From Balanoglossus misakiensis (taxonomy: Eukaryota; Animalia; Hemichordata), in assembly GCA_040954595.2 (NCBI GenBank), contig CM082588.2:12227398-12291397 (forward strand): a stretch of 64,000 nt of DNA, written 5' to 3'. Positions 30,051 to 59,029 of the stretch are shown here, piece by piece. Within the stretch, counting starts at the first letter, position 1, and every line of letters begins with the position of its first letter. Under the pieces are notes generated by a model, which saw only the letters and a program-made list of their open reading frames with translations, did not search any database and was not told the origin of the DNA. The translations under genes were made by a program, and so were the position numbers.

Positions 30051-30060
30051 AAAAGGGGGA
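30051..30060 (+). promoter_or_regulatory. Polypurine tract of the Gypsy element
   Basis: AAAAGGGGGA immediately before the 3' LTR. Confidence 0.9.
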
Positions 30061-34386: not shown

Positions 34387-34527
34387 TAAGTATTAGGAAG
34401 GTTCCAATGCATGTCACTGGGCATGAATGTGCAAGGCTAGGTGTACTGTTTTGTTTTGTTTTGTATTTTGTTTTAATCTTAAAAATTGTGCTCCATGAAT
34501 TTTAATGTGCAATTGTTTTCATACTAG

Positions 34528-37285
34528 GATGAAAAAGAAACTGAGAACTAAATATGGCATTAGTGACACTTATAATCCACTAATGGAACTGGAATCATTT
34601 GATAATGGCTGGTGGGTTACATTATACACATGACTGGTGGTAAGGTAAGCATTTGTTTGCATCCATGGATGACCACTTATAACATACCAATGTTCACATC
34701 CTCTTGAAAATTCAAGGTCATTGTAAGTGTAAACTTACAGTTGAAATATTAATTACCTTTATGTGTTTTCAACTGTACATTTAGATCTCTTTTGAGAAAC
34801 TACATAACATTGAATTGGGAATAGTAAAAATATTTACCCAATTAACATTTGAAGTGATTGGAGCTAATGATATACTGGAAATAGACCACAAATTAAAGGT
34901 AAGAAATTTAGTATAATTTAGTATTTAATTTTCTTTAAATGATGAATCAGAAGTTTTATTCATACTATGTTACAATACTGGAACAAAGTCCATTGTGTTT
35001 GCTTGTGCATCATGTAAATGTGCTGACAATTCAATCGCCCGTGTATAAATCAATATTGTAATTGACATTATGGTTTAATTGGCAATATGTATTTACAGAC
35101 CAGTGTCATTATTACGTTAGGTATTTGATTGGACAGCTTTCAAACGAACTCTATCCCCATCATTTGTCTACAAACACAAGTCGTTTATCGGAAGGGACTT
35201 CAAGTTGTGGGCCCAGGTGGCCCCATTCATACTGGCTTCTAACGTACCACCTGAGTATCTACGATTGTGGCACCTCATCAGTGAGGTAGGTTATAACATT
35301 AACTTTATCATTTGTTTTAGAGATTACATTTAAGTTTGATATTTAGCTCCCATTTTTTGAAAATGCCATGTGTATCATTAATTGTATATAAAGTTACTTG
35401 GGTATCTGGTTATGGCTGTAGAGCTGTGAAAATCTGAAGCAAAACTATTATATACTTGTGTGTGTATTTCTCATGGTGAAATCGGAAATGTTTTATGAAG
35501 AATTTCCTTTTGTTAAAGTATCAAAATAATTATATTTTTATGACGCCTCTCTTCTTTCACTTGACATAGGTTTTTGTACTTGTGCATAGAGGTAGACGAA
35601 CAACATGTCAGAGAAATGCAAGAATTGGTTGATAACCTGATCAGTGAAGTGAAGAAAGTGTTTCCTTCAACTTTGAAACCTAAGCATTTATGAAATATTT
35701 ACCTTAATTTAAATTGTGGTCTTTGGTTATTTTGGGTTCCATTTGTTCCACTGTCTGACTAGTTTCATAATGAATTAGTTGTGAGATGCCCAGCAGATGC
35801 TTCATGTATCAATTGACAAGTTGTTGAAAGGTAAACAATACAAAAATAATATATGAAGATTTTTTTAAATTTTCCCCTTCTCAGATGTGAATCGTTAATG
35901 GGCTTGGTCAGGGTCAGGTGTTTATTTACCAATCACCACAATCCATCTAGAGATCTGGCCGTAAGTTTTGATAGACTTCAACAGATTCATCACATACTTC
36001 AATGTGGATTTTGGAAAGACTGATGGAGATTACAGGTAAGGACTTACCTATTTACAGTTATTAAAAGTAAGCATGGCAATTAGTCACAAAGATTTATTGA
36101 TGGGAAGACTGTGTTTGGCAAACTGGCCGACTAATCAATCTATTTATTGCAAGGAATGGTCAGTATGTACAGGAAAATGCATTTTATATCATTTTGATAT
36201 CAAAAGTGCACTAGTCAAAAATGTTAGATGTACAGGAATAAGTTTATTATTACTGTACAACATGAAGTATGCCTGTAAACATTAATACTGCAGTGACTTA
36301 TGCATGCTTCTCACTATTTTGGTATTGGCCCAGTATTCTTTAAAATCACCAGGAATGATGTTTGAACATTTTTTTTATTAGTATGATAGTTAAGTTTTTT
36401 GTTATCATTTTAAATTCTATTCTCAGATGCTGTGGAAACTCAGTAAAAATGAATAGGTGACCAGAACTCCAGAAGTTTCTATATGGTGATAACAAAAGTA
36501 GAAGCTATCTGAAAGGTGACTTGAGAAAGGTAAGTTTGCAGCTACAATCTCCACTTATAAACAATGACCATGGGGAAATGTACCATACTAAAATAGCAGA
36601 ATCCGTGGACTTTAGCATGCATCCTGTGCCGTATACCGGTACAGACGGTATTTTCATGAGTGATGTAGTGTATTCTGTGCCAGTCATGATTCACTTGTTC
36701 ATTAGTGAAAATAACTTCAGTACAGCACAGATCACACACAGAGAGTTCTGCTATTATTGCATATGTTCCCTCAGATTTCACAAAAATTAATGTGCAGGAA
36801 TCTATCATATACACCTGACTCTATTCAATATAAAAATTTGTGAGTGTGTTGATAATGTTCACACATTTGAGTGGTTTAAAGAATAATAGACAGTAATGAA
36901 ATATTTTTACAGCTGCAAGCTGGCATGGCACATGTAAAGCATCCATAGAGGAGGAAACAGCCAACAATGACATGGACAGGTAATGTCACAATTCCATTGT
37001 GTCACATTAAGGTTGAACGCGCAGTGTTTTACAATGCTGTCCATTTATCACTTTCACTTTAAACAGCTACTGTAAACTTATTAAAACCATGGTTTATGTG
37101 ATAAATTTGTGATATGTCTGCAGATACAGTTTTTAAATGTGTTACATTCCGACTTTTAAGTGTTGTTGTTTTTTCCTGATTGTGCAACAACAGATGTCAG
37201 GCCAAGAGAGTTCAAAGCAGTGCAAGCAGAAAATGGTATTGTAAACAGAGGTGCTTTTCTGAGCTATACAACGTCTTCCAGAGAG
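34528..37285 (+). pseudogene. C-terminal exons of a spliced DDE-transposase-like gene, copy 2
   Basis: AG/GT-bounded blocks translate to MKKKLRTKYGISDTYNPL, ISFEKLHNIELGIVK, SFIGRDFKLWAQVAPFIL and CESLMGLVR...NPSRDLAVSF. The KIHMLLH...TE segment is deleted near 35685. Confidence 0.75.
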
Positions 37286-37956
37286 GTAATGCAATTGCAT
37301 AACAATTAATGGAAAAGGATATGGGTGCACTATATGTTCTGACATTTCTATTTCATCAATATTATGGTCAGAGATCAACATCCCTCATGCAGGCTAAATA
37401 TGATAATATAAGGTTATTCACTAATTATATTATATCATGCTACTGTCCACAATTCTGATTGGACGAGAGCTCAATCCAGCGATGATAAAAAACTCAATAA
37501 TGCACTGCTAAAACGGTGACCTTTGACCTAACCCAAGTAATATGTTGTAAAAAAATGTGATATTTGCATAAATGTGTTATCGGGGAAACTTTTGCAATTT
37601 TTGTTAAAAATTGTTTTCTCTGAAACCGCTTGTCATATTGCATTGAACTTTGGCAGGCATGTTCCTTGTAGTGATTGAAGTAAGATATTGTACAATGATA
37701 CTTGCATATTTGTGTTTTTGCCACTTTTTAACAAATATTTTCTGTGAAACTGCTTGTTGGATTGCTTTGATATTGTTTTTTTTCTCTGATTGCTTTGAAA
37801 TTTACACATACATGAATATGTGCAACTTTTATTCACTTCTGATATCAGAAATATTCAATATTTAGCGAATTTTTTGTAAGTTTCTTTGTTTTTGGTTAGC
37901 AAATCTTCTCCTAAATTGTCCAGTTGTTTTGAAAGTTACTGTTTACAAGGTGTTGT

Positions 37957-38496
37957 TGTGGCTGAAGCCATGCAAAAACAAAAGAATTTCGTATTTTAAT
38001 ATTGAGGGATATGCACGAACGGTTTGTTGTTTAAAATCTTACTCCATAAAAATAGTTCCATATTTTGTTACGAGTTTCGATATTGCAGACTTTTGATTTT
38101 CACGATGAAAGATGTTGTGACTTTATGTGTACCTTTGAAGGTCATTGTGAACACATCGACAAACCATATTTCGCACAAAAGTTTTACAAGTAGTCCATCT
38201 ACGAATGTCATATCACTACACATTTGCACCTCGTGTTTTCGATTTCGCTATGGGACGGTGAAGTACACCCTCGTCTCTCGTTTCGTACCCTTCGATATTT
38301 CATTCGTATTTCAAAACTTCCCGACCACAAGGCTTTACAAGTCGCCAGCAAGTTTTTACTGTGACCGCCAAAGCTTTTCCGAAATATTCAAAAGTCAGAG
38401 TCGAGTTTCCATGTATGGGTCTTCTGTTTATTATCGATAAATCGATCGAGTGATCGCTGAATGCGATCGTACGAGACTGTACACAATAGTCGAAAG
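37957..38496 (+). repeat. BEL 5' LTR (3' end lost in the gag deletion)
   Basis: Direct repeat of 44120-~44565 with scattered substitutions; 38400-38496 is inverted relative to the 3' LTR. Confidence 0.92.
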
Positions 38497-40718
38497 CAGA
38501 CTGCTATGGTGTGACTTGCCCACGGGGAAAGTCTATTTCGTCGATGATCATTCCAGTGTGGATTTCTGGATACAAAGAACCGAACAGAGAGATTCTAGTG
38601 TACGCGCTGTTGGACACACAGTCAGATACTACTTTCGTGTTGGATCATGTCGCTGAACAGCTACACACAGCATCTGAGCCAGCAAACCTTCGTATGACAA
38701 CCATGACAATGAGCAACAAGGTTGTTGCCTGTCACAAATATCGCAAACTCAGAGTTCGCGGGTTTGACTGTGACAAAATAGTTCCGTTGCCCACTACGTA
38801 TTCGCTTGATTACATTCCAGTGGAAAAATCGCACATTCTGACTCGTGATATGGCCAATGGGTGGCCTCATCTTAGAGAAATCGCTACTTATATTCATCCT
38901 CAACAGAAATGTGAAGTTGGTCTGTTGATAGGTTATGATTGTCCTCAAGCCCTAGCACCTCGTAGCTGTGTCACAGGCAGTGGAAATCAGCCATTCGCAG
39001 TAGAGACAGACTTAGGATGGAGCATCGTCGGACATCTTACACATCGAGATGAAAGGGAAGATGTCTTCAGTTTTACCCATAGAGTACTTACAAAGGTGAT
39101 ACCAGACGGTCTACAACCAGGTGTAGACAGTCAGCAGAGACTTCGTATGGAAGAGTCTCATTCGTCGGCAGTTCGTTATGCCTTTAAGACTTCAGCCAAG
39201 GAGCAAGTCCTCAACCCTTTGGACGTGGTGAGAATTCTCGAATCGGACTTCAACGAACAAAGAGTTGAAGAAACCGCCATGTCTCAGGACGACATTCGAT
39301 TTTTAAAGATCATGGAAAATGGTATTTCAAAAGAACCAGATGGATTCTATACAATGCCACTTCCATTCAGACAGGATAAACGAGCGCTCCCAAACAACAG
39401 ATGTATAGCGCAGCAGAGACTTCAGTACTTGAAAAGGCGCTTCAAGTCAAACCCAAAGTATCTGAACGACTACAGAAACGTCATGGAAGACATTATTGCG
39501 ACAGGAGATGCGGAACTGGTCGACGACCAGAATATAGATGATGGATCAATGTGGTATATTCCACACCATGGGGTGTATCACCCTAAAAAACCGACAAGAT
39601 TCGTGTCGTGTTCGATTGTAGTGCGAGGTTCAAGGGAACGAGCCTCAACGATCATTTGTTGCAGGGACCGGATCAGATAAATTCCCTCATTGGTGTACTT
39701 TGTCGTTTTCGCATAGAGAACATCGCAGTCATGTGTGACATCGAGCATATGTTCCACAGATTTAGAGTCAAGAAAGATGACAGAAACTATCTCCGATTTC
39801 TTTGGTGGAGAGATGGTAATGTCGACTACGAACCAGTTACCTACAGGATGAACGTTCACCTATTCGGCGCTGTGTCCTCACCAGGATGCGCAAACTACGG
39901 TCTTCGACAAGTGGCCAAGGACAACCCACAGCACGGAAAGAGCGCTGTAGACTTCGTCGCAAAGAATTTCTATGTTGATGATGGTCTCCATAGTCTCGAG
40001 ACGGCATCAGAGGCTGTCCAACTTATACAGGATGTCCGCAACCTTTGCGCAGAAGGAAATTTACGTCTGCACAAGTTCATATCGAATGACAGAACTACGA
40101 TGGAATCTGTCCCTATTTCATAGCGTGCCAAAAACGTCAAGGATTTGGATTTGTCGTTCAGTGAGCTACCAATGGAAAGAGCACTTGGAATCGAGTGGCG
40201 CGTTGAGTCAGACATTGTTCCATTTTTCGCCTATCATCAAGATGCACTCGCCTTCTCGTTGTGGAATACTTTCGGCAGAAGCATCTGTTTTCGATCCTCT
40301 CGGATTTCTCGCACCTTTCGTACTTCGAGGAAAACGGATCTTGCAAGAGATGTGCAAGAAAGGAACCGATTGGGATGATCCCTTGCCAGACGATTTACGT
40401 CCGAGGTCGGAATCATGGCTTACTGAGTTGCCCAAGCTAGACGACTTGAAGATAAGAAGATGCTTCAAGCCGCAACATTTCAGACCAGTGAAGAAAGTTG
40501 AGCTTCACCATTTCTCGGATGCCAGCCTGACAGGTTATGGTCAGTGTTCGTATATCAGACTAGTCGACAGTCTAGATAATATTCATTGTTCGCTCGTGAT
40601 GGGAAAGGCTAGAGTCGCCCCTTTGAAACCCATTACTGTTCCCCGATTGGAACTACAAGCTGCTGTTGTTTCTATACAGGTCAGCAATCTACTGAACAAA
40701 GAGTTGGATTACCCATTG
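38497..40718 (+). pseudogene. pol: BEL pol, N-terminal part: protease, RT, RNase H (frameshifted)
   Basis: [66 protein letters not shown] across three overlapping ORFs. Confidence 0.93.
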
Positions 40719-42906
40719 TAGTCCATGGGCCAGGACCCCATTTTTCATAAATTGGTATCAGAAAGATGGACAAAGCCTCACATAGATTTTTGGAAAGGCC
40801 TATATCTCTAGATTATAAATTGGGGTGATAGCCCTGCCTATCGAGTAGCTTTCTGCATTTTTTCCCTCAAAAACTAATGTAAGAACCTAAAAATTTCCGA
40901 CCCAAATTTTGAGGGTAGGGGAACTTTAAATTGCTGTAACTCCAGCAAAACTAAAGCCAGAACAGTCATTTACCACTCAAATTGTGTGTTTTTTAGAACT
41001 CTACCAAAATAATATATTTTGGTGGTAATTCGTTTTGAATTGAGGTCAATAGAGGTCAAAAGGTCATGAAATTTGGGTCATTCTGAACATTTGTAGTATG
41101 ACTATTTCTTGAACGATTGTTTTTAACTTAAGTCTTTAAATGTCATTTACAAGATAAAATACTCTCCCAGAATCTATTTCAAACCAATAGAAAACCTTAT
41201 TATTCATTTATGACCAGAAAAACACAAATAAAGAGAAACGACAGAAAGACATCCAATTTTCCACTCAGATTTAAGGGTAGGGGAAACTTAAGTTCTTGTA
41301 ACTCCGGCAAAAATAAACCCAGAACAGTCATCTACCACTCAAACTGTGTGTTTTTTAGAACTCTACCAATATAATATATTTTGGTGGTAATTCGTTTTGA
41401 ATTAAGGCCAATAGAGGTCAAAAGGTCATGAAATTTGGGTCATTCTGAACATTTGTAGTATGACTATTTCTTGAACGATTTTTTTAACTTAAGTCTTTAA
41501 ATGTCATTTAGAAGATAAAATACTCTCCCAGAATCTATTTCAAACCAATAAAAAACCCTATTATTCAATTACGATCAGAAAAACACAAATACAGAGATAC
41601 GGAAGAATGGCACAAGACTTCAGACCCTGTTATTGGGGTAGTAGTTGTAACTCCGGCAAAAATAAAGCCAGAAAAGTCATCTACCTCTCAAATTGTGTGT
41701 TTTTTAGCACTCTAGCGATTGTATATGTATTTGTTGCAATTTTGTTTTGAATTTAGGTCACAGAGGTCAAAAGATCACAAGATTTGGGTAATTTCGAAAA
41801 ATTATGGTACGAACATTTCCTGCATTAATTTTTTAAACCCAAGTCTTCAAATGTCATTTATGAGATAAAATACTCTACACGATTTTTTTTCAGACCAATT
41901 GAAGACCTTATTATTCAATTACAATCAGAAAAAAAATTAGTAGAGAAACGGGATAATAACAAACAATTTCCCACGGATTTTGGGGTAGGTTTGGCCATCT
42001 AACAGGTAAGTATACACCCAACTGATCATGCACATATGGTGTTTAGGAGAACGGATGTGCAAATTTGTGAACCTTTGCATGCTGCTCATGTGCACTGTAC
42101 TTGTATGATGATTCCTAACAATACTACGAGAAGGGGCCATTAAGGCATTGTAGCTCTGGTTGTGTATTATTGTTGGATACCATCCTACAGTGTACAGGCA
42201 CAGCAGATGACAAGCCAAGCAAAGGTTCAAAAATTCAAAACGAATTACCACCAAAATATATTATATTGGTAGAGTTCTTAAAAACACACAATTTGAGTGG
42301 TAGATGACTGTTCTGGGTTTATTTTTGCCGGAGTTACAAGAACTTAAGTTTCCCCTACCCTTAAATCTGAGTGGAAAATTGGATGTCTTTCTGTCGTTTC
42401 TCTTTATTTGTGTTTTTCTGGTCATAAATGAATAATAAGGTTTTCTATTGGTTTTAAATAGATTCTGGGAGAGTATTTTATCTTGTAAATGACATTTGAA
42501 GACTTAAGTTCAAAAAAATCGTTCAAGAAATAGTCATACTACAAATGTTCAGAATGACCCAAATTTCATGACCTTTTGACCTCTATTGACCTCAATTCAA
42601 AACGAATTACCACCAAAATATATTATTTTGGTAGAGTTCTAAAAAACACACAATTTGAGTGGTAAATGACTGTTCTGGCTTTAGTTCTGCTGGAGTTACA
42701 GCAATTTAAAGTTCCCCTACCCCCAAAATTTGGGTCGGAAATTTTTAGGTTCTTACATTAGTTTTTGAGGGAAAAAATGCAGAAAGCTACTCGATAGGCA
42801 GGGCTATCACCCCAATTTATAATCTAGAGATATAGGCCTTTCCAAAAAACCAAGTGAGGCTTTGTCCATCTTTCTGATACCAAATTCCTGTCTGGCCCAT
42901 GGACTA
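40719..42906. mobile_element. Non-autonomous foldback DNA transposon with ~680-bp TIRs, 5'-TAG...CTA-3' ends and a 3-bp TSD (Academ-like)
   Basis: TAGTCCATGGGCCAG ... CTGGCCCATGGACTA; 40719-~41403 is the reverse complement of ~42232-42906; TTG duplicated on both sides. Removing it restores the pol frame DYPL-MENFYWTES. The superfamily call is an inference. Confidence 0.88.
40900..41935 (+). repeat. About three tandem ~360-bp subrepeats inside the foldback element
   Basis: GTAACTCC(A/G)GCAAAA...AGAGGTCAAAAG...GATAAAATACTCT recurs near 40936, 41298 and 41647. Confidence 0.85.
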
Positions 42907-42909
42907 TTG

Positions 42910-44011
42910 ATGGAGAACTTCTACTGGACAGAGTCGAAAGTGGTACTCGGCTACATAGGAAATGATGTTCGTCGCTTCCACATATATGTTGCGAATCGTA
43001 TACAAAGAATTAAAGAATCATCTCAGCCAGAGCAGTGGCACTTTGTCCACACTGAGGAAAACCCTGCAGATCATGCATCTCGTGGACTCGGCGTTGATGG
43101 ACTGATGAAATCCAATTTGTTTAGAGGTCCTGCCTTTTTGTGGGACAAAGAGCTTCCTCTGTCCACTCGGGTAGACGCACAGGTGTCAGCAGATGACCCC
43201 GAGGTAAAGAATACCAGAACATTGATGACTTCCTCGACTGCAACGTCATCCATGTTACATCGTGTAGAGCGATTTTCCGATTGGAACAAGGTTGTAGGAG
43301 CATTCGCCACCTTGTATCGCTATGTATCCGGGAAGGGAAGGGAAAGCGAAAGGAAATCGCTTCCGGAGGAACAAGACAGAGAGCTACCATGGCCATCGTG
43401 GCATGGGCCCAACAGGAAGCTTTCAAAGAAGAAATAGAGTCATTGAAATCTCGCACGTCAGAAGATAGTTCGGTCGGTTTGTCTCTTCGTACTCTGATGT
43501 ATGAAGCAATGGCGATTGTGAATAGTCGACCCTTATCAGCAGAGAACTTGAACGACCCTACTGGACCGATGCCTCTTACTCCAAATCAGCTGCTGACTAT
43601 GAAATCGGATGTGATTTTGCCACCGCCAGGCAACTTCGTCAGAGAAGATCTGTATGCCAGGAAAGGATGGTGTTCTGTTCATATCTTGCGAACGAGTTTT
43701 GGACAAGATGGCGTAAGGAATACTTACAGAATCTACAGGCCAGACAGAAGTGGCAGGAAACGAAGAGAAACCTTGAAGTTGGAGATATTGTACTTCTTAA
43801 GGAAGATGATGCTGTGAGAAATCAGTGGAGACTTGCGAAAGTGATAGACACTTTGCGCGATGATGATTGTTTGATACGTAGAGTCACTATCCTTGTGGGG
43901 GATCCCAACCTCTCGAAACAAGGTAAGAATGTAGACAAGGCAACAATTTTAGAAAGGCCTATTCATAAGCTTGTTGTATTGGTAGAAAATCCTGAAGCAG
44001 AGAAATGCTAA
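42910..44011 (+). pseudogene. pol: BEL pol, C-terminal part: RNase H end, then integrase tail after an internal deletion near 43470
   Basis: YWTESKVVL, YVANRI, NPADHASRG, then a jump to EAIVNSRPL-like, PLTPNQLL, FWTRWRKEYL and ERPIHKLVVL. Confidence 0.9.
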
Positions 44012-44119
44012 GGTAAGTTGTTTTCAGTGACACGGGAGAGCTGAGAAATAGCTTGGACGTATTAGGTAGTTGTTTTCAGTATTTCGATTAGGTAAAATCA
44101 ATGTGATTTTAGGGGGGAG

Positions 44120-44700
44120 TGTGGCTGAAGCCATGCAAAAACAAAAGAATTTCGTATTTTAATATTGAGGGATATGCACGAACGGTTTGTTGTTTAAAAC
44201 CTTACTCCAGAAAAATATTTCCATATTTTGTTACGAGTTTCGATATTGTAGACTTTTGATTTTCACAGAGAAAGATGTTGTGACTTTATGTGTACCTTTG
44301 AAGGTCATTGTGAACACATCGACAAACCATATTTCGCACAAAAGTTTTACAAGTAGTCCATCTACGATTGTCATATCACTACACATTTGCACCTCGTGTT
44401 TTTGACTTCGCTATGGGACGGTGAAGTACGCCCTCGTCTCTCGTTTCGTACCCTTCGATATTTCATTCGTATTTCGAAACTTCCCGACCACAAAGCTTTA
44501 CAAGTCGCCAGTGAGTTTTTACTGTGACCGCCAAAGTTTTCCGAAAGATTCAAAAGTCAGAGTCGAAGTCTTTCGACTATTGTGTACAGTCTCGTACGAT
44601 CGCATTCAGCGATCAGTCGATCGATTTATCGATAATAAACCGAAGACCCGTACATGGAAACTCGACTTTTGAATATTTCGGAAAAGCTTTGGCGGTCACA
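44120..44700 (+). repeat. BEL 3' LTR (581 bp) ending in a 178-bp IR-bounded cassette
   Basis: TGTGGCTGAAG...GGCGGTCACA; 44523-~44565 is the inverted repeat of ~44661-44700. Confidence 0.93.
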
Positions 44701-45201
44701 GTTGTTACCCCCAACTTAGACATGTTTACATAACTTTAATAGGCCAGCTGTTACAGAGACCACCGGCTATTAAATTTTAATTACCAGTGGCAGGTCAGTG
44801 TGTGTCTGTCTGTTTGTTCCAGGGCTGACTGAAAGAAGTTGCTTCTCATACGTGTTTGTCCAGACAATTTTTGGTCAATTTTTTTTTCTACCACCAGTTG
44901 TAAGACTGCCATGACACATGACAGTTTTTTGGGCATGTTCTTTGATAATTTTTTTACATTCCATATTTCTATATCGTAAGATCATATCTGCTTGCAATGT
45001 CACCTTTAATTTTTATTCTGGTGTGTCACTGTTTTTGCATAATCCTCAAATTGGACCACAGTGTCCTTGATGCTATTTTGTTTTCATTTTGTGGAGGGGT
45101 AAACACAAGTTCTTTCAAAGATATTGCGCTGAATCAATGGCACTGTCTTTGGTGAAATGGAAACAGCCACTCGTTTTGAAAATACTACATGTAATCATAG
45201 A

Positions 45202-46023
45202 CCCTAGAGAAAATTTTTGCTGGTTTGTCTAGTGTACCAGGGCAGAGTGCTTGCCACCCCAACCCCACTGATGATAATATTTAACAAAGTAATACATAAA
45301 AGAGAATAATTGTTTAAACCATTTCGCATAACTGATAGTTTCATGCTCCATCTTCTATATGCTGGAAGCTTTATAAATGATGTCATGACGAAGATGACGC
45401 CAAATCTTCTTACTTTTAGTGGAATGGCAAAAAGTAAAATTGGTCCTCCCAAATATTGAGATGAATTTGCTTTTGAGTTCATACAAATGCAACTTTGAGC
45501 AACATATTTTACAAAATTTTCTTATGTGGGACCATGTGTACCATGTCAGACTTATTCCCACCCCACCCCTATTCTTACTTTGAGTGAGGTGGCAAAATCA
45601 AAATTTGTCCTGCCTAACATTGAGTTAGTTTGCTTTTGAGTTCATTAAAATGCAACTTTGAGCACCGTATTTTACAAAATTGTCTTATGTGGGAGGGGAA
45701 CACCCCTCCCACGCACACCCCCGCCACTTTTCTTGTTTTACCAATTCTAGCAAGTATTGTATTGACTTGTCATTTTATTTTGTTCATAGATTTCTTTATT
45801 GCAACGATATTATTATAAGAAATTTATAATTGAGGTGTGAGGAGCCTCATTCCCTTTATTGCATACAGTGTACATAGTATCAGGACGGCAAATGTGTTCA
45901 GCATGGGGGGGGGGTCATCATATTTTGGTGCTGGGTGAAGGGGGGGGGGTCGGCCTGATTTTGAAAACCAATGACTCAAACTTGCCGACCCCCCCCCCCC
46001 AGCCGTAAAAACTGAACGGTCCC
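45202..46023. mobile_element. Second left-truncated copy of the Harbinger-like MITE
   Basis: Matches ~58017-58841; right TIR plus TAA is followed by the same GTATTAGGAAGG flank as at 34390. Confidence 0.9.
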
Positions 46024-48066
46024 TAAGTATTAGGAAGGTTCCAATGCATGTCACAGGGCATGAATGTACAAGACTAGGTGTACTGTTTTGTATTTTGTTA
46101 ATCTTAAAAATTGTGCTCCATAAATTTTAATGTGTAATTGTTTTCATACTAGGATGAAAAGGAAACTGAGAACTAAATATGGCATTAGTGACACTTATAA
46201 TCCACTAATGGAACTGGAATCATTTGATAATGGCAGGTAGGTTACATTATACACATGACTGGTGGTAAGGTAAGCATTTGTTTTCATCAATGGATGACCA
46301 CTTATAACATACCAATGTTCACATCCTCTTGAAAATTCAAGGTCATTGTAAGTGTAAACTTACAAGTTGAAATATTAATTACCTTTATGTGTTTTCAACT
46401 CTACTTTTAGATCTCTTTTGAGAAACTACATAAAATTGAATTGGGAATAGTAAAAATATTTACCCAATTAACATTTGAAGTGATTGGAGCTAATGATAAA
46501 CTGGAAATAGAGCACAAATTAAAGGTAAGAAATTTAGTATAATTTAGTATTTAATTTTCTTTAAATGATGAATCAGAAGTTTTTTTTAAACTATGTTACA
46601 ATACTGGAACAAAGTCCATTGTGTTTGCTAGTGCATCATGTAAATGTGCTGACAATTCAATCGCCCGTGTATAAATCAATATTGTAATTGACATTATGGT
46701 TTAATTGGCAATATGTATTTACAGACCAGTTTCATTATTATGTTAGGTATTTGATTGGACAGCTTTCAAACGAACTCTATCCCCATCATTTGTATACAAA
46801 CACAAGTCGTTTATCGGAAGGGACTTCAAGTTGTGGGCCCAGGTGGCACCATTCATACTGGCTTCTAACGTACCACCTGAGTATCTACGATTGTGGCACC
46901 TCATCAGTGAGGTAGGTTATAACATTATCTTTATCATTTCTTCACTTCACTGATCAGGTTATCAACAAATCCTTGCATTTCTCTGAGATTACATTTAAGT
47001 TTGATATTTAGCTCCCATTTTTTGAAAATGCCAAGTGTCTCACTAATTGTATATAAAGTTACTTGGGTATCTGGTTATGGCTGTAGAGCTGTGAAAATCT
47101 GAAGCAAAACTATTATATACTTGTGTGTGTGTATTTCTCATGGTGAAATCGGAAATGTTTTATGAAGAATTTCCTTTTGTTAAAGTATCAAAATAATTAT
47201 ATTTTTATGACGCCTCTCTTCTTTCACTTGACATAGGTTTTTGTACTTGTGCATATAGGTAGACTAACAACATGTCAGAGAAATGCAAGGATTGGTTGAT
47301 AACCTGATCAGTGAAGTGAAGAAAGTGTTTCCTTCAACTTTGAAGAAACCTAAGATACACATGCTGCTTCACTTGATAGTTGACATCACAGATTATGGTC
47401 CCTGTGACTGCACTGATACTGAAAGGTATACAGCATTTATGAAATATTTACCTTAATTTAACTTGTGGTCTTTGGTTATTTTGGGTTCCATTTGTTCCAC
47501 TGTCTGACTAGTTTCATAATGAATTAGTTGTGAGATACCCAGCAGATGCTTCATGTATCAATCGACAAGTTGATGAAAGGTAAACAATACAAAAATAATA
47601 TAGGAAGATTTTTTTAAATTTTCCCCTTCTCAGATGTGAATCATTAATGGACTTGGTCAGGGTCAGGTATTTATTTACCAATCACCACAATCCATCTAGA
47701 GATCTGGCCGTAAGTTTTGGTAGACTTCAACAGATTCATCACATACTTCAATGTGGATTTTGAAAAGACTGATGGAGATTACAGGTAAGGACTTACCTAT
47801 TTACAGTTATTAAAAGTAAGCGTGGCAATTAGTCACAAAGATTTATTGATGGGAAGACTGTGTTTGGCAAACTGGCTGACTAATGTATTTATTGCAAGGA
47901 ATGGTCAGTATGCACAGGAAAATGCATTTTATATCATTTTGATGAGAACAATGGGGACACCGCACAGTGCAGACGTGTAAAACTGAGCTCCGTAAACTTC
48001 ACCTGAAAACGACTTCAACAAGTTCCTTTGGTGGTCTCCTGAGCTGTCCAGGGGCAACAATCACCA

Positions 48067-49071
48067 GTGAGAAGTTCGTGTAGCGAAATGGGAATATCCA
48101 CAGAACAGTATCGAGTGAAAATTGGTAATTTTGCCGGCGGCGACCCGACACGTCAGCGTAAGCTATCGAAGATGGCCGACCTACACATACCTCTGATGAA
48201 CTGCAAGATGTCCCTGACCATTAAGCTTTGCCTTTTCAGTCTACTTGTAACATGCGGGAGTGTAGAGAGAAACCCGGGTCCTAACCTCCGTTCCAGTAAC
48301 CAGAGCACGGGTTCGGGAGAAGATTCTGCTACCAAAAAAGATATCGAAGGTATCGTACACAAACTTGATAGACTTTTACGGGATTCGAAGACAATGAACG
48401 CTAAACTTGACAAATTACAATCACGAATCGACAATATAGAGGACGAAATGAGTGAATTAAGAGAGTTGTTGGACGACAACAGAGCAAGAATGTTAGATCT
48501 GGAATCAAAACAGAAACCATTCGATGAATTTCAAGAAGCAATTGCCCGCCTACAACGTGACAACGAACAGATCAAACGTGACAAGGATGATCTTGAGAAC
48601 AGAAGCCGAAGGAACAATTTATTGTTCTACGGTTTGGAACAAGAAAAGGAAAATGAAACCTGGGAAGAAGCTGAGAAGAAAGTCAAAGATGTGTTGAAAA
48701 ACGAGCTGGAAATTTCGGAAGACATTGTGTTTGACAGGTGTTGTCGTTTGAACAATGCACCGCCAATACGCGGAGCTAGGCCGGTCATAGCTACGCTTTC
48801 AAAGTTTAAAGACAAATTTCTCATTCTTTCCCAAACAAGGAAACTTGCTAACTCCGGTATCAGTATCGGAGAGGATTTCACGAAAAGGGTACGTGCCATT
48901 CGCGCCAAATTGCTTGCTCACCGCAGAATCTTGCTGGACGAACACGTTGGTTCAAAAGCTCTCGTCCGTTTTGACAAACTGATTCATACCGAAGCCAACG
49001 GCCAGAAGACCACCTATAAAGTCGACGAATCAACAGGGCAAGTCGTGAAGGCGCACATCGCTCCACCATAG
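48067..49071 (+). CDS. LINE ORF1 protein: 2A-like leader, coiled coil, L1-type RRM (first ATG at 48088)
   Basis: Open 334-codon frame with LLVTCGSVERNPGP, heptad region, ENRSRRNNLLFYGL, RPVIA and IGEDFT. Confidence 0.9.
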   Translation: MRSSCSEMGISTEQYRVKIGNFAGGDPTRQRKLSKMADLHIPLMNCKMSLTIKLCLFSLLVTCGSVERNPGPNLRSSNQSTGSGEDSATKKDIEGIVHKLDRLLRDSKTMNAKLDKLQSRIDNIEDEMSELRELLDDNRARMLDLESKQKPFDEFQEAIARLQRDNEQIKRDKDDLENRSRRNNLLFYGLEQEKENETWEEAEKKVKDVLKNELEISEDIVFDRCCRLNNAPPIRGARPVIATLSKFKDKFLILSQTRKLANSGISIGEDFTKRVRAIRAKLLAHRRILLDEHVGSKALVRFDKLIHTEANGQKTTYKVDESTGQVVKAHIAPP

Positions 49072-49110
49072 GGACGTGGCCAGGGTCCAAAGAAAAATGA
49101 CATTTCCTTT

Positions 49111-52100
49111 TTGTTCTGGAACATCAGAGGCTTAAAGGCTAAATCCTCAGATTCAGATTTCCTTTCATTTTGTAAAAATTTTGACATAATTGGTCTCGTA
49201 GAAACTTTTTGTTGCAAGGCAGACAGTGTTGATTTCTTAGCCGACTATGTCGCTTTTAAATTCCCAGCTTGTAGACGCAGCCAGAGAGGACGTCCGAGTG
49301 GGGGAACTGCTGTTTACGTTCACCGAAATTTTGCAAACAAAGTAAAGGAAATTCATAGCTCTGTTGAAAATAGCATTTTTCTTCATCTCGATAAAACTAT
49401 CTTTCCTTTTAACAAAGATGTTCTTTATGGCTGCTGCTACTTTAATCCTGATGACAAGTCCGATAAATTCGAAGCGCTGGAATCGCTTATAACTGATTTT
49501 CGCTCTCTTTATTCAGACTCACTGGCTTTACTTGGTGGCGATTTTAACGCCAGAATTGGGTTACTTTCTGATTATATTGTGGACGACTCAATTGACCATG
49601 TACCGACCAATGGTTTAGACTATGTACCTGACACTTTCCAGGTGGAACGAAATTCAAAGGACGAAACGGTTAATGAGGCAGGCAGAGTTATGTTAAATTT
49701 ATGCAAATGTTTGGATATTCACGTTTTGAATGGTCGCTTACATAATGATAAAGCTGGGAATGTTACTTGTGTGACTTCAATGGGTTGTAGCGTTGTCGAT
49801 TATATAATTTCGTCATCTGAAATGTTTAGTTACGTCACATATTTCAATGTACTTCCACGTGCAGAATCTGACCACTTTCCACTCATTTGCAAACTGGAGG
49901 CAGCCAACACTCATTTGCATAAGAAAGAAAAACACCCGCCCATTCCAACCACTGAATCTGTCCGCTTCCATTGGACAGAGAATTGTAAGAGTTCGTTCCG
50001 GCCAAACTTAATGTCCGCAAGTGTTCAGTCACTGCTGCAAAAAGCGAGAAATTCTCTCCCCAATTCTCATGTCACTATCGGTAAACTGAACGAAGCGCTA
50101 ATGTCTGCTGGCTCCGAAGGTTATTGCAAAAGCAAATCATCCAAACACAATGGCAATCAACCACAATGGTTTGATGGGACTTGTACCGAGTCTAAACGCG
50201 TCATGTACGCGAAATTAAAAGTTTTCAGAGAGGATGGCTCAAATGTAGAATTAAGTGAGTATATGGCAGCTAAAGCTAGGTTTAGACAAATTTGCAGAAA
50301 AAGTAAAAGGGAATATCAGGCTCGTATCAGGTGCCAATTGAATGAAGCTTCATCTAAGGGACCGAATGACTTTTGGTCAATTTTGAAATCAGTGTTAAAC
50401 CAGAGGCACAGTCGTGATGAAAGCATCGATATTGAGACGTGGTACAACCACTTTAGTTCTTTACTTAATAGTATAGATAACACAGATACTGACCATATTT
50501 TGCCTACCTCGATTGAAGAGGAGTTTGACAGTATTGATGATTCAGTCAGTTCCGATGCAGGACACTTGGATTCACTTAACTCCAAGATCACGGAGGAAGA
50601 GATCCTGAGATGTCTAAAAGGTCTCAAAGACGGCAAGGCGCCTGGACCAGACGGGATCCCCAACGAGTTTTACAAATTTTCTGCTGATGTAACTTTGCCT
50701 CTTTTAACTGAATTGTTTAATTTCATTTTCGACTCCGGTACCTTTCCATATGAATGGTCTATTGCAATAATCATTCCACTTTTTAAAAAAGGCCGCAAAA
50801 ACGATGTTAATAATTATAGGGGAATCTCTCTTTTGAACACACTGGGTAAAGTTTTCACTTCTGTTTGAAATCAGAGAATTACAAGGTGGGTAGAAGATAC
50901 AAATCTTCTCTCAGATTGCCAGGCCGGTTTTCGAAAAAATCACTGTACAGTCGACAATCTATTTGTTCTTCATGCAATCATTCAGAAATATCTCGGCATC
51001 AGACGAGGAAAGCTTTATTGTATGATCGTGGACTTTTCAAAAGCGTTCGACACTATCAATCATTCTTTGTTGCTGTACAGATCACTTGGTGTTAATGACA
51101 AAATGTACACATTATTACAGTCCATGTATAGTGGTGTTAAAGCATGTGTAAGAACAAACAATGTAACTTCAGCTTATTTTGATTGACCAAAGGGAGTAAG
51201 GCAAGGATGTATCCTCAGTCCAATCTTATTTGCACTTTTCATCGAAGAACTCAATTCCATGTTGATGTCTGCCGGGCGTACAGGAATTCAACTGACACAA
51301 GATATGTATGATCTGTTTGCGCTTTTATATGCAGATGATGTAGTAATTTTTGCAGATTTGATTGCCAACCTGCAACACCTTATCAATATTCTGCAGGAGT
51401 TCTGTAAACATTGGCAGATGAAAGTGAATTTAGACAAAACAAAAATTGTTATCTTTCGTAAGGGTGGTAGAAAGTCATCTAGAGAGGCATGGTACTTTGA
51501 TAATACTGTAATCGAAGTAGTTTCTTATTACAAATATCTTGGGCTGTTACTATCATCTACGAATGTATGGTCGAAAGCTGTCTCGACTCTTGCTTGCCAA
51601 GCAAACAAAGCAATGAACGTGCTGTTAACTGCTACTAGAAAAATTGATAGCTTTACGCTTAAGGTTCATTTCAAGGTTTTTGATGCGATGATTGTACCGA
51701 TCTTGACTTACGGTGCCGAAATATGGGGTTTCCAATACTATGACTGTATTGAAAAGATTCAGAGAAAATGGTGCAGACGACTACTGACAGTCTCAAATAA
51801 TGCCCCTAATGAGGCAGTAGTGGGAGAATGTGGTCGTCTACCTTTATTTTCAAAGACCCTACGGAAATGTATTGGCTACTGGTTAAAGCTTATTGAGATG
51901 CCAACAAATAGACTCCCAAGACATGCGTACAAAATGTTAAGAAATCTCGATAACTTAGGGAGGCATACATGGGTCTCTTCAATCAAACATATTCTTTATT
52001 CACATGGGTTTGGTTATGCCTGGATTGCTCATGAGGTGGGCAACAAAGATATTTTTCTCAGCTATTTTCACTCTAGGGTTATTGATATATGTAAACAACA

Positions 52101-52524
52101 ATAGTTAATTAATGCAACAAACAAACCTAAGTTACGCACATACTGTACATTCAAAAGTATTCTTGAACCTGAAAGGTATTTAACTTTGAACTGTAATGTA
52201 AAATTTATACAGGTTCTTGCTCGCTTCAGATGTTCGTCTCTCCCTCTAGCGATAGAGGAGGGGCGTCATCGGGGAGTTGACCCAAACCATAGGTTTTGTA
52301 AGTTATGTAACTCTGGTGATATTGAGGACGAGTACCATTTTTTGTTAATTTGTTCTCTTTATATCAGCATCAGAATCAAATATTTACCACGAAGTGCTTT
52401 CCTTGACCCAAACTACTACAAATTCAAAAGGCTTATGAGCTCCACAGATTCACAGGTACTACTGAACATTTGCCACTATGTCTATAAAGCTATGGCTGTG
52501 AGAACAGCCACCTGTCCTGCATAG
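49111..52524 (+). pseudogene. LINE ORF2 (APE endonuclease, RT, C-terminal Cys/His finger), disrupted
   Basis: WNIRGL, GDFNA, SDHFP, KAPGPDG, NYRGISL, DFSKAFD, GVRQG, YADD, KYLG, IEEGR...CKLC...EDEYHFLLIC; frameshift near 50865 and stops near 51185 and 52102. Confidence 0.93.
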
Positions 52525-55066
52525 AGTGTATTACATTGTTTAACTTTCTCTGTAATTCTGAAATTAGCACTCAATCTGTATTTGTGCGATGGTTCACTTT
52601 ATTTGAGAACGGGATGTTCTCCATGCATTTGGACCCGAGGTCTTGAAACGCAATAAATTATTATTATATATCATTTTGATATCAAAAGTACACTAGTCAA
52701 AAATGTTAGATGTACAGGAATAAGTTTATTATTACTGTACACCATGAAGTATGCCTGTAAACATTAATACTGCAGTGACTTATGCATGCTTCTCACTATT
52801 TTGGTATTGGCCCAGTATTCTTTAAAATCACCAGGAATGATGTTTTGAACATTTTTTTATTAGTATGATAGTTAAGTTTTTTGTTATCATTTTAAATTCT
52901 ATTCTCAGATGCTGTGGAAACTCAGTAAAAAAATGAATAGGTGACCAGAACTCCAGAAGAGTCTATATGGTAATAACAAAAGTAGAAGCTATCTGAAAGG
53001 TGACTTGAGAAAGGTAAGTTTGCAGCTACAATCTCCACTTATAAACTAAGACCATGGGGAAATGTACCATACTAAAATAGCAGAATCCGTGGACTTTTGC
53101 ATGCATCCTGTGCCGTATACCGGTACAGACGGTATTTTCATGAGTGATGCAGTGTATTCTGTGCCAGTCATGATTTCACTTGTTCATTAGTGAAAATAAC
53201 CTCAGTACAGCACAGATCACACAGAGAGAGTTCTGCTATTATTGCATATGTTCCCTCAGATTTCACAAAAATTAATGTGCAAGAATCTATCATATACACC
53301 TGACTCTATTCAATAAAAAAAAATTTGTGAGTGTGTTGATAATTTTCACACATTTGAGTGTTTTAAAGAATAATAGACAGTAATGAAATATTTTTACAGC
53401 TGCAAGCTGGCATGGCACATGTGAAGCATCCATAGAGGAGGAAACAGCCAACAATGACATGGACAGGTAATGTCACAACTCCATTGAGTCACAAGGTTGA
53501 ACACGCAGTGTTTTACAATGCTGTCCATTTATCACTTTCACTTTAAACAGCTACTGTAAACTTATTAAAACCATGGTTTATGTGATCAATCTGTGATATG
53601 TCTGCAGATACAGTTTTTAAATTTGTTACATTCCGACGTTTAAGTGTTGTTGTTTTTTCCTGATTGTGTACATGTTGTTACTTTCGTAACTTTAGACTGA
53701 TTGCAACAACAGATGTCAGGCCAAGAGAGTTCAAAGCAGTGCAAGCAGAAAATGGTATTGTAAACAGAGGTGCTTTTCTGAGCTATACAATGTCTTCCAG
53801 AGAGGTAATGCAATTGCATAACAATTAATGGAAAATGATATGGGTGCACTATATGTTCTGACATTTCTATTTCATCAATATTATGGTCAGAGATCAACAT
53901 CCCTCATGCAGGCTAAATATGATAATATAAGGTTATTCACTAATTATATTATATCATGCTACCGTCCACAATTCTGATTGGACGAGAGCTCAATCCAGCG
54001 ATGATAAAATACTCAATAATGCACTGCTAAAACGGTGACCTTTGACCTAATCCAAGTAATATGTTGTAAAAAATGTGATATTTGCATAAATGTGTTATCT
54101 GGGAAACTTTTGCAATTTTTGTTAAAAATTGTTTTCGCTGAAACCGCTTGTCATATTGCATTGAACTTTGGCAGGCATGTTCCATGTAGAGATTGAAGTA
54201 AGATATTGTACAATTTGGTGATATTTTCATATTTGTGTTTTTGCCACTTTTGAACAAATATTTTCTGTGAAACTGCTTGTTGGATTGCTTTAAAATTGTT
54301 TTTTTCTCTGATTGCTTTGAAATTTAAGATATAATTACATAACACATACATGTATATGTGCAACTTTTATTCAATTCTGATATCAGAAATATTCAATATT
54401 TAGCCAATTTTTTTGTAAGTTTCTTTGTTTTTGGTTAGCAAATCTTCTCCTAAATTGTCCAGTTGTTTTGAAAGTTACTGTTTACAAGGAGTTGTTACCC
54501 CCAACTTAGAAATGTTTACATAACTTTAATAGGCCAGCTGTTACAGAGACCACCGGCTATTAAATTTTAATTACCAGTGGCAGGTCAGTGTGTGTCTGTC
54601 TGTCTGTTCCAGGGCTGACTGAAAGAAGTTGCTTCTCATATGTGTTTGTACAGACAATTTTTGGTCAATTTTTTTTCTAGCACCACTTGTAAGACTGCCA
54701 TGACACATGACAGTTTTTTGGGCATGTTCTTTGATAATTTTTTTACATTCCATATTTCTATATCGTAAGATCATATCTGCTTGCAATGTCACCTTTAATT
54801 TTTATTCTGGTGTGTCACTGTTTCCGCATAATCCTCAAATGGGACCACAGTGTCCTTGATGCTATTTTTTTTTCATTTTGTGGAGGGGTAAACACAAGTC
54901 CTTTCAAAGATAATGCGCTGAATCAATGGCACTGTCTTTGGTGAAATGGAAACAGCCACTCGTTTTGTAAATACTACATGTAATGCAAGGCTCCAGATCA
55001 TGCAACACTAAAACATTGGTCAAGTAACTTAAAGTTATGAATATCATTCTTTTTTTTAAAAAACAG

Positions 55067-57473
55067 GGAGAAACCAATTTGAAATACATTTGGTATCTCT
55101 TGCAAAAACAGGACATGACAACGCCTAGTTTGTATCAGGTGAAACAGCATCTAGCTGACCTACCTGGAAAACTGGAACCAAATTTGGTATGCATAAACCA
55201 TAATAATCTTTTGTCTAGATATGCATTGCAATTTCCAGTTATGTTTAATTAATGCATGTAAATGTATATATTGTCGTGCTGTGAAACTGTTTTGCATGGG
55301 GGTAATTTACTTGTTATTCAAAAATATGCAGAACATTGACCATGTCAAATTTCCCCAAAATCTCACTGTTTATATAATAATAATGTTATTAATTGTCATT
55401 ACAGTTTGTAGATGCCAAGGGACAGGAATACTATTCTTTGTCCATGATCGACACTATCAGAAGCAGGATAGCAACACCAAGTACATCTGGGCGTCTATCT
55501 TATTACCCCAGAAAACAAACTAATAATGTCATAAGGTATGTTGAGAGTTACATAAATTCATTGGTAATGTCACCATGGTAATGTGCTTAAACTAAACTTA
55601 GAAATTTGTCATGATACCAAATCAGCACACAGATACATGTAGCGTAGATTTCTGAATGAACATGTCCTCATTGCATTGCATCGCATTGCATTGAGTCACC
55701 GACATCATTTATGGCTGTAATGTCAAACAGGCTAACTCAACAAACCATACACGAGAAGATGTACACATTCGATAGTAAATATTTATTTGGTTCCTGCAGA
55801 ATTCTACCTATAACACTGTGGGAACCAAGTGTAACTGATTTTAAATGTATTTTGAAATAGGGAAATGTACGAAGCAAAGAAGTGGCATCTTCACCACAGA
55901 TATCAAACACCAATGGTTGAGGTAAATGATGAGGTTTTTTACCTGAAAGACTTTTTATGGATTGACAAAAATGGGACACAGCTGCTTGGGTACATCTCAT
56001 CAATATATGTTGACGTAAAATAGTACTGTTTTTGTTTTTTTCCAATATCATTTTTCTCAAGTCATCTGTTTTGGGTTGTTAGTATTGACTCGTTCATCAA
56101 ATTTTTGTCTCACCAACATGTTATCACTTGTCATTTAATTTGTTTCAGATGACACCTGAAGATTGTGAAGGTGAAAAGCCAGGTATTTTTGTGAAGGTCA
56201 TTGTTTGTAACATACGTGATCAAAAAGTATGTCATACAGACAAGATCCTAGCTATCCATAGTAATCAACTGAGGGGCCACTATAAAAGGTGATGTGAACA
56301 GCAAAACAGTTGGATGGAAGATAGATTCAGAGAATGGATTAAAGAGACTCTCCCATGAGGTATTTACAAATTCTACATTGTCATGGTTATCTGGTGGCCA
56401 TGCATTTATTAAAAAGGAAGTGTAACGTTGGCTATTTTATCCCTGTCTTATATGATTGTAGACACTTGACTCCTTCCATCAGCATCAGGTGATAAGGTAC
56501 ATACCTATCAGTAAGCTTATAAAGATGGCCCAATTCAAGTTGGAAAATAAAATCATGAAAATAATGCAAAAAGTGGCAGCTCTAGAGGCTTTAACTAAAA
56601 TTAAACAAATCATGTCAATGGTAATGTTATCATGATTTATGTTATTATGCGATCACATATACATAAATATAAAATTGTTATTTCTGTTACAGTTTGTCAA
56701 GTCTTTGGTGTATGGACATCCAGAGTGTAATTACTGTACCAATACAATGTAGTTCTCTTCTCTGATGACGTTGGTAGCAGCAGTACCAAGAAGTGGAGTC
56801 CATTAAGTGTGTGGTGTTTGATGCTGGGAGGGCTACCAAAGGAGGACAACAACAAACTTGAGAACATTTCTTTTGTAAATGCTTCTGCAAGAGTAGATGC
56901 CTTGGAGCTGAGCAAACCTCTCGTAGCCGAGTTGAAAGTGTTAGAGTCCGAGGGGGTTGTAATGTTTGACGCCAACCTCAATAAGGAAGTTTTAGTGGTG
57001 TCCCCTCTTTTCTTAGTAAAAGCAGACAATGTTTGGCAGTCGGAGATTGTTAATCACACCGGTGCTGCATCAGCGAAATTCTGTCAATGCTGTACTGTAA
57101 GTAAATAGTGTTATTCTAGCAGTGGTACAATATGACATGCCAATACCCACAACACATAAAATCACTCTTTGGGTATTAAAGTCAAGGTGTATTGCCGTCT
57201 AGAATCTCATAGCCACATTTATGGTTTGATAATTTGTAAGCAAAAGTGGCGGGCCTTTACACCAAAGCCAGTCCAGTCGACTTTTTCGTCTTTCCGAGGT
57301 TTATCCTGCAAGTACTGTTATATGCTGGTGTAACAATTTCCCATGGATTAATTGGGAAATCATCATTATTATTTACAGGTTTCCAGAAATGAGCCATTTG
57401 AGAAAGGTGCTCATCGGACCAAGGACTCCACACAGACAATCATCCGCGAAATAGAATCTGCTGGCACTGATGG
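55067..57473 (+). pseudogene. N-terminal/catalytic exons of the spliced transposase-like gene (approx. 55067-55186, 55405-55535, 55861-56014, 56149-56359, 56462-56496, 56693-57096, 57379-57473)
   Basis: AG/GT borders with mostly compatible phases. Peptides: YYPRKQ...REMYEAKKW...TPMV, VLFSDDVGSSSTKKWSPLSVWCLMLGGLP, KADNVWQSEIVNHTG...KFCQCC. Small frameshifts are present. Confidence 0.8.
56520..56590. mobile_element. Right-end fragment of the Kolobok-like MITE, in an intron
   Basis: AAAATAAAAT..TGAAAATAATGCAAAA.GTGGCAGCT.TAGAGGCT followed by TTAA matches 63325-63371. Confidence 0.6.
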
Positions 57474-58841: not shown

Positions 58842-59029
58842 TAAGTGGGCCGTCGCAAGCAGAAACACCCCTGATGCAAACTTGCTACATTTTGCGTAAA
58901 ATGTATCAAAAGTCAACGTGACGCATTACGCTTACAAACGACTACGTACGTAAATTTAATTGCACTGCTTGTGATTTATTAGAGTCCTGGCTTTTGGGGG
59001 GCAGATGGAGCGCATATGGAGTCTTACAC

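What the first reader, a model, noticed from the sequence alone, without database searches (positions are those of the whole stretch)
34528..57473. Hidden intron-rich DDE-transposase-like gene in permuted order
Seen: about 15 short AG/GT-bounded exons, mostly invisible to the ORF track, assemble into one protein. The last exon of the right-hand block (57379-57473) ends ...ACT GAT GG|gt. The first exon of the left-hand blocks (34528, 46153) starts ag|G ATG AAA, so the phases match and it reads IESAGTD-G-MKKKLRTKYGISDTYNPL. The same MITE lies after the former and before the latter, so it marks the original intron. The joined protein has FSDD..S.TKKW, ADN..SE..NH.G...FCxxC, ExLH...LG.VK, GRDFK..AQ.APF, KIHxLLH...YGP....TERCES and NPSRDLA. 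Inference: this D...D-CxxC...H...E layout resembles CMC(EnSpm)/Plavaka-type RNase-H-fold transposases and, from recollection, a poorly classified family in fungi and basal animals. So many introns are unusual for a transposase, so this may be a little-described large DNA transposon or a domesticated gene. No element termini are visible here.
Basis: partly seen in the sequence, partly recalled or inferred. Interest (0 to 1): 0.8.

Follow-up and report, generated by a model that had tools for sequence, protein, structure and literature searches.

The report
Broken intron-rich RAG1-fold transposase, duplicated
This is a broken, 14-exon piece of a jumping-gene enzyme whose scrambled order likely comes from tandem duplication; its relatives are predicted to fold like the antibody-gene cutter RAG1 with an added chromatin-reader-like domain, and they likely extend a transposon group described from rust fungi into animals.

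Summary
Fourteen AG/GT-bounded exons, read in the order 55067-57473 then 46153-53804, align colinearly to a Ptychodera flava protein (residues 160-872, 64% identity, no gap at the join). The gene is dead: 7 frameshifts and 2-3 stops, five of them shared by two copies. Exons diverge like introns (2.2% vs 2.5%), and both gene ends are missing. The permuted order is best explained by head-to-tail duplication of an internal segment, followed by deletions and retroelement insertions. A homolog's AlphaFold model matches RAG1 (Z 20.3) and keeps the DDE, CxxC and H-x3-H layout of the CMCT (EnSpm/Transib) clade. It also holds a predicted BAH-fold domain (Z 10.9) that my searches did not find described. 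The family has 1,590 representatives, including sponge, bivalve, brittle-star, protist and fungal proteins. Soil-metagenome homologs, grouping with basidiomycete proteins, sit in ~8-kb elements with CAC..GTG ends and TA duplications, the hallmarks of ESTA (described 2025; the names I saw were all from rust fungi). So this is likely an animal, intron-rich ESTA-related lineage, not Plavaka proper and not a domesticated gene. Termini of the animal lineage are untested. A sequence look-up found no earlier scan report of this family.

The parts
55067..55186 (+). exon E1 (internal; upstream exons absent), homolog residues 160-199
   Evidence: 95% identical (38/40) to P. flava P0160
55405..55535 (+). 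exon E2
55861..56014 (+). exon E3, first half of the predicted BAH-fold domain
56149..56359 (+). exon E4, second half of the predicted BAH-fold domain; one frameshift
56693..57096 (+). exon E5: first D (FSDD), second D (ADN), CxxC; frameshifted near its start
57379..57473 (+). exon E6, phase-2 donor that fits E7
57783..58842 (.). complete MITE with inverted ends flanked by TAA; marks the former E6-E7 intron (ends approximate)
45208..46028 (.). 5'-truncated copy of the same MITE before copy 2
46153..47784 (+). copy 2 exons E7-E11 (46153-46236, 46411-46524, 46747-46911, 47237-47425, 47634-47784): LH, GRDFK, H-x3-H, catalytic-position E, SRDLA
47930..52667 (+). LINE inserted in the E11-E12 intron of copy 2 only, about 14-bp target duplication
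52909..53804 (+). copy 2 exons E12-E14 (52909-53013, 53400-53466, 53696-53804); downstream exons absent
53805..55066 (.). repeat-rich spacer that holds the end-to-start duplication junction; the copies part at 54984/54985
34528..37285 (+). copy 1 of exons E7-E14; E10 has lost the H-x3-H motif and its donor, E14 its acceptor
30603..34391 (.). 5'-truncated MITE before copy 1, split by a minus-strand LINE (about 31206-34146)
37952..44700 (+). LTR element (Bel/Pao-like, label recalled) inserted after copy 1 only
24727..25318 (+). third, partial copy (end of E12 and E13) abutting the satellite
30370..30590 (.). third copy of the spacer end, joined to the MITE interior as in copy 2

Best explanation
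These are broken, duplicated middle pieces of a 14-plus-exon gene that likely encoded a cut-and-paste DDE transposase, predicted to have the RAG1 fold and likely related to ESTA transposons, with the exon order likely scrambled by head-to-tail duplication. When intact (inferred from homologs), the enzyme had a weakly predicted N-terminal C2H2 finger, a BAH-fold domain, an RNase-H core with D, D and E, and a CxxC + H-x3-H zinc site. It would have paired short CAC..GTG ends and inserted at TA; those ends are shown only for homologs from soil metagenomes. History (inferred): the gene first took a MITE into the E6-E7 intron and gathered inactivating lesions. An internal segment, from the intron before E1 to the intron after E14, was then duplicated head to tail, placing E14 before E1. 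One unit lost E1-E6 and the MITE's left part, and that shortened unit was copied again. Retroelements entered single copies, and the outer ends were lost to a satellite (24727) and to unrelated DNA (58847).
For: Colinear homolog: 442/689 identical over residues 160-872; 128 of 129 homologs have the same order. Fold: model of P0001 has pLDDT 82.3; RAG1 Foldseek E 2.2e-9; VIA Z 20.3, rmsd 4.4, 450 aligned; P element Z 14.0; Transib Z 12.2. Motifs at 90% or more in 103 sequences include D431, D518, C537, C540, H609, H740, H744, E764. Mobility: P. flava models lie on 11 scaffolds of distinct length, most of them partial. L042/L043 are 99.95% identical 7,936-bp copies with different flanks, CAC..GTG ends and TA on both sides. 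Dead: 7 frameshifts and 2-3 stops; exons 20/901 vs introns 66/2637 differences. Duplication: segments mostly 2.2-3.0% apart, the same spacer-to-MITE junction twice, and insertions private to single copies.
Against: No termini or TSD are known for the animal lineage. No ESTA reference protein could be compared, because the supplement's sequences are cut at 400 characters. In an unrooted tree the window groups with animal proteins, apart from the basidiomycete clade that holds the rust proteins and L042, so it may be a sister lineage with other ends. The intact E6-MITE-E7 junction is not in the window. Two short segments diverge more (spacer end 4.5%; MITE outer part 3.8-4.7%). Of 13 3' alignment boundaries among metagenome loci only 2 end at GTG|TA, and 5 of 8 5' boundaries start at TA|CA. 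The structure is of a homolog, not of the window's own sequence, and the catalytic assignment rests on position and conservation.
Confidence: 0.85

Rival explanations
1. The family is domesticated in acorn worms (a RAG1-like host gene with many introns), and the window holds pseudogene copies of it.
For: At least 14 exons. Five intron positions match points where P. flava models end or diverge (residues 536, 725, 810, about 835, 872). One P. flava locus gives 876- and 966-residue models with the motifs intact.
Against: Several subfamilies (39-67% identity to P0154) on 11 scaffolds, mostly partial. Metagenome relatives are recently mobile. The catalytic-position residues are kept.
Confidence: 0.08
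2. The permuted order arose through a circular intermediate (an excised or deleted circle that reopened inside the MITE and integrated), not by tandem duplication in place.
For: An end-to-start junction with both gene ends missing is also what a circle gives. The array starts and ends near copies of the same MITE.
Against: Three partial units in direct tandem, with a shared secondary junction, need local duplication in any case. No target duplication was seen around the whole block.
Confidence: 0.15
3. The repeated blocks are an assembly artefact (haplotypes or reads joined in tandem).
For: The 2-3% divergence could be allelic (inference). The locus abuts a satellite. No short-read contig spans the whole stretch.
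Against: There are three copies, not two. Each has its own insertions. A contig bridges the spacer end into E1-E4 (54938-56559, 1 difference).
Confidence: 0.05

Closest known systems
[quoted passage not shown]
   Same: RAG1-like transposase with C(2)C and H(3-4)H between the second D and E. Metagenome homologs have CAC ends (CACAGC, CACGGC, as in several ESTA consensus starts), TA duplication and about 8 kb length. The family includes Puccinia and Melampsora proteins; animal vs rust profiles E 4.7e-74 over 531 columns.
   Different: The 56 of 89 supplement places I saw name only rust fungi. This is an animal lineage with at least 14 exons, apart from the basidiomycete clade, and its termini are unknown. 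The passages read mention no BAH-fold domain.
Plavaka (PF18759) and EnSpm/CACTA (PF02992, PF13960)
   Same: CMCT motif layout. Atlas neighbours include Plavaka clusters at 0.93-0.94. One weak DUF4218 hit on E10 (E 0.17).
   Different: No Pfam hit for P0001 or P0154; 1 of 48 homologs hits Plavaka, and 1 of 48 hits Transposase_21 below cutoff. Plavaka ends are TGT or CATCA and fungal EnSpm has 3-bp TSDs (PMC12730594), unlike L042/L043.
RAG1, ProtoRAG RAG1L, Transib (PDB 6dbi, 4wwx, 6b40, 6pqn)
   Same: Best structural matches (Z 20.3, 19.4, 19.0, 12.2).
   Different: 10-13% identity; no sequence-profile match in the PDB; no RAG2-like gene seen in the window; a BAH-fold insertion.
BAH domains (AIPP3 7cce, ORC1b 5hh7, Rsc2 4bb7, DNMT1, Sir3)
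   Same: The isolated domain model (pLDDT 83) matches BAH domains: the top 19 VIA rows (best Z 10.9, rmsd 3.1, 108 aligned) and all listed Foldseek rows are BAH domains or proteins known to hold one.
   Different: 4-16% identity; no Pfam BAH hit; it lies inside a transposase; binding is untested.

Membership tests
[quoted passage not shown] | DDE triad in an RNase-H fold | tested here: met
   Homolog model matches RAG1, Transib and P element; D431, D518, E764 conserved at 90% or more; the residues are present in window exons. Residue roles are inferred.
CMCT clade | C(2)C and H(3-4)H between the second D and E | tested here: met
   CQCC in E5; HMLLH in E10 of copy 2, deleted in copy 1.
CMCT clade | 5'-CA..TG-3' termini and a 2-5 bp TSD | not testable with these tools
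   Both gene ends are absent from the window and no genome is held. Met for metagenome homologs.
ESTA | TA target duplication and CAC ends | tested here: inconclusive
   Met in L042/L043 and at single ends of L011/L013, L017/L027/L031 and L014/L025. Untested in the animal lineage.
ESTA | Groups with ESTA transposases in a CMCT tree | tested here: inconclusive
   No named ESTA protein was available. The unrooted tree of 64 of 65 sequences puts the window in an animal clade apart from the rust proteins and L042.
Plavaka | PF18759 match; TGT..ACA or CATCA..TGATG ends | tested here: not met
   No hit for P0001 or P0154; 1 of 48 homologs; L042/L043 end in CAC.
EnSpm/CACTA proper | PF02992 match; 3-bp TSD (fungal EnSpm in PMC12730594) | tested here: not met
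   1 of 48 homologs, below cutoff; 2-bp TA in L042/L043.
KDZ (Kyakuja, Dileera, Zisupton) | KDZ/CxC domain match; 8-bp TSD | tested here: not met
   No such Pfam hit in 48 homologs; 2-bp TSD in L042/L043.
RAGL/ProtoRAG | RAG1L sequence similarity and a convergent RAG2L gene | tested here: not met
   Profile search of PDB sequences gave 0 matches at E up to 10; no partner gene was seen, though the element's ends are missing.
Domesticated transposase gene | Intact frame under purifying selection, fixed single locus | tested here: not met
   7 frameshifts, 2-3 stops; exon 2.2% vs intron 2.5%; dispersed paralogs in P. flava.

The most novel reading that the evidence does not exclude
ESTA-type RAG1-fold transposons are a superfamily spread across animals, fungi and protists. 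Their transposase carries a hidden BAH domain that reads histone marks or nucleosomes to choose insertion sites or evade silencing, and in acorn worms they move as 16-plus-exon genes.
Probability: 0.25. Interest if true: 0.72.

Novelty: new variant of a known kind. Interest (0 to 1): 0.45.

Why it matters
The locus itself is dead debris and the permutation is ordinary. Its value is as a pointer to a large transposase family that Pfam misses and databases mostly label uncharacterized. If the ESTA link holds, a group seen only in rust fungi in the paper read extends to sponges, bivalves, echinoderms, acorn worms, chytrids and protists. The predicted BAH-fold domain gives a testable idea of how RAG1-fold transposases engage chromatin. 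Uncharacterized multi-exon gene models in Ptychodera would need re-labelling as transposon-derived.

Tried and rejected
No whole genome is held, so no search for intact copies or termini in this organism was possible. Pfam found nothing on the large exon or on P0001-P0004 beyond weak zinc fingers and other sub-threshold hits. Word-indexed protein searches found only 2-6 hemichordate proteins; the HMMER search found the family. The PDB sequence-profile search gave 0 matches. The viral fold library gave none at E 0.001 or better. Single-protein scans of prokaryote genomes and viral contigs found no locus. Rfam over 24000-64000 gave 0. No RNA holder was listed, so splicing is untested. In DNA contigs of one sample, only near-identical contigs covered E1-E3, and no diverged copy appeared at 85% likeness. 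Contig depths were about 230-250 for E1-E6, 440-500 for E7-E10 and 170-200 for the Gypsy body (run X1); the tool warns that depth is no copy number and absence no proof, so I do not rely on these. A TA-CAC..GTG-TA scan of the window gave 2 pairs, one inside the LTR element and one with 2 mismatches inside introns; both were rejected, and other end types were not scanned. Literature: 'CMCT' with EnSpm gave 1 paper. BAH with transposase gave 0 papers in two searches, and no listed paper joined BAH with Plavaka (listing only). The Lanisha report is in Repbase Reports and was not readable. Repbase and Dfam were not searchable, so animal members may already sit there under EnSpm names. The scan look-up by sequence found 0 look-alikes.
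Full report
Observation. The largest exon retrieved three Ptychodera flava proteins and one Saccoglossus protein at 68-77% identity, so the host is likely an acorn worm (inference). Laying these proteins on the window gave two blocks. I define 14 exons, all with AG and GT ends. Spliced in the order 55067-57473 then 46153-53804, they align to P0154 residues 160-872 with 442 of 689 identities and no gap at the 57473/46153 join. Of 176 held proteins, 129 were hit by both blocks, and 128 of those have the right-hand block first. The first 160 and the last 95 or so residues of P0154 have no match in the window.

State of the gene. The right-hand block plus copy 2 carries 7 frameshifts and 3 stops against P0154; one of those stops disappears against P0162. 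Lesions in E10, E11, E13 and the E12 stop are in both copies. E8 has the same length and only 3 substitutions between copies, so its frameshift is shared too. The gene was therefore dead before duplication (inference). Since then exons have changed at 20 of 901 sites and introns at 66 of 2,637, so there is no sign of selection.

The permutation. The window reads: satellite to 24727, partial copy, spacer end, truncated MITE, E7-E14, spacer, truncated MITE, E7-E14, spacer, E1-E6, whole MITE, unrelated DNA from 58847. Duplicated segments differ mostly by 2.2-3.0%. The MITE's inner part falls in the same range, and its outer part differs by 3.8-4.7%. Both truncated MITEs join the spacer at the same point. 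A LINE, a second LINE, an LTR element and a Gypsy element each sit in one copy only. The simplest history is a head-to-tail duplication of an internal segment, loss of E1-E6 from one unit, and a further duplication; a circular intermediate cannot be excluded. A DNA contig bridges the spacer end into E1-E4. The E6-MITE-E7 junction itself is not present.

What the protein is. A HMMER search with P0001 found 1,590 representatives at E 0.001 or better. Of 30 looked up, named ones come from acorn worm, brittle star, sponge, mussel, scallop, Pompholyxophrys, chytrid-grade fungi, mushrooms and rusts; 3 had no name. In 103 aligned sequences, D431, D518, C537, C540, H609, H740, H744 and E764 are among the columns at 90% or more. 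The AlphaFold model (pLDDT 82.3) matches RAG1 best by Foldseek (E 2.2e-9) and by VIA-align (Z 20.3, rmsd 4.4, 450 aligned), followed by ProtoRAG, P element and Transib. Kojima 2025 (PMC12730594; passages) defines the CMCT clade by C(2)C and H(3-4)H between the second D and E, with CA..TG ends. That paper defines ESTA as the RAG1-like lineage with TA duplications. Pfam separates this family from Plavaka and EnSpm: 1 of 48 homologs hits each, the second below cutoff.

Link to ESTA. A rust-protein alignment fetched 57 metagenome loci. L042 and L043 are 99.95% identical over a 7,936-bp element with different flanks, CAC..GTG ends and TA on both sides, and they encode a homolog of P0001 (E 2e-13 and 9e-13). 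Among outermost pairwise boundaries, 5 of 8 on the 5' side start at TA|CA, in three element groups. On the 3' side 2 of 13 end at GTG|TA; most of the others are 66-69% internal matches. Starts such as CACAGC and CACGGC occur among ESTA consensus sequences. The 56 of 89 ESTA places that I saw in the supplement carry rust-fungus names only. Its sequences are cut at 400 characters and Figure 4 is not held, so a direct protein comparison was not possible; the unseen parts may bear on this claim. Animal and rust profiles align over 531 columns at E 4.7e-74. An unrooted FastTree of 64 of 65 sequences (P0162 dropped for coverage) puts the window with Ptychodera, brittle star and sponge, apart from the basidiomycete clade. 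So it works like ESTA with good odds; membership is about 60% by my judgement and is not shown.

Mobile or domesticated. P. flava models of the family lie on 11 scaffolds of distinct length, mostly as fragments. This favours a transposon family. Several models end or diverge at my exon boundaries (residues 536, 725, 810, about 835, 872), indirect evidence that the many introns are shared across the acorn-worm family. One review passage describes the basic DDE transposon as intronless (10.1101/2021.09.26.461848, passages). Intron-bearing transposases such as maize En/Spm are known (recalled), so intron richness is unusual in degree, not in kind.

BAH-fold domain. Residues 270-412 of the model matched BAH domains. 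Folded alone (P0022, pLDDT 83.2), the domain's top 19 VIA rows are BAH domains or BAH-holding proteins (best Z 10.9, rmsd 3.1, 108 aligned; next fold 6.6), as are all listed Foldseek rows (best E 1.4e-4). Window exons E3 and E4 encode it. In 70 of 103 homologs at least 60 residues align to this stretch; only the acorn-worm version was folded. Capture of Chromo and PHD readers by transposons is published (10.1101/2021.11.30.470311, passages). Three searches did not show a BAH-transposase report. A shared fold shows no function, and histone binding is a hypothesis.

Verdict. The feature is real and was well read by the first stage. It is a dead, duplicated fragment, and the permutation is ordinary. 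The family it exposes is a likely animal, intron-rich relative of ESTA with a predicted BAH-fold domain: a new variant of a known kind, interest 0.45.

Noticed in passing
window 1-24727: Satellite of about 186- and 207-bp monomers with a 393-bp higher-order period, directly abutting a fragment of the transposase gene.
   Followed up: no
window 25375-30178: Gypsy-type LTR retrotransposon with two identical 118-bp LTRs, so a recent insertion; its pol is split over two frames.
   Followed up: partly
window 40749-42886: Inside the LTR element, a 655-bp inverted duplication at 98% and several direct sub-repeats interrupt the coding region; a 139-bp inverted segment also joins 38358-38496 and 44570-44702.
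   Followed up: no
window 48043-52524: Near full-length LINE with an ORF1 (342 aa) and an endonuclease-RT ORF broken by stops.
   Followed up: partly
window 61062-62747: A second MITE-like element with inverted ends and internal repeats 75-85% like the intronic MITE; it contains an acidic 118-aa open frame (61392-61748) with no Pfam hit.
   Followed up: no
L013 118-8884; L035 4249-13130; L014 1017-9444; L017 6522-14778: Candidate complete 8.3-8.9 kb elements with short, imperfect CAC..GTG ends flanked by TA; picked by eye from lists of sites, not tested against chance.
   Followed up: partly
proteins P0033, P0166, P0023, P0031, P0048: A divergent subclade with named scallop and mussel members; P0033 hits Plavaka above cutoff (E 1e-7) and may bridge this family and Plavaka.
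   Followed up: no
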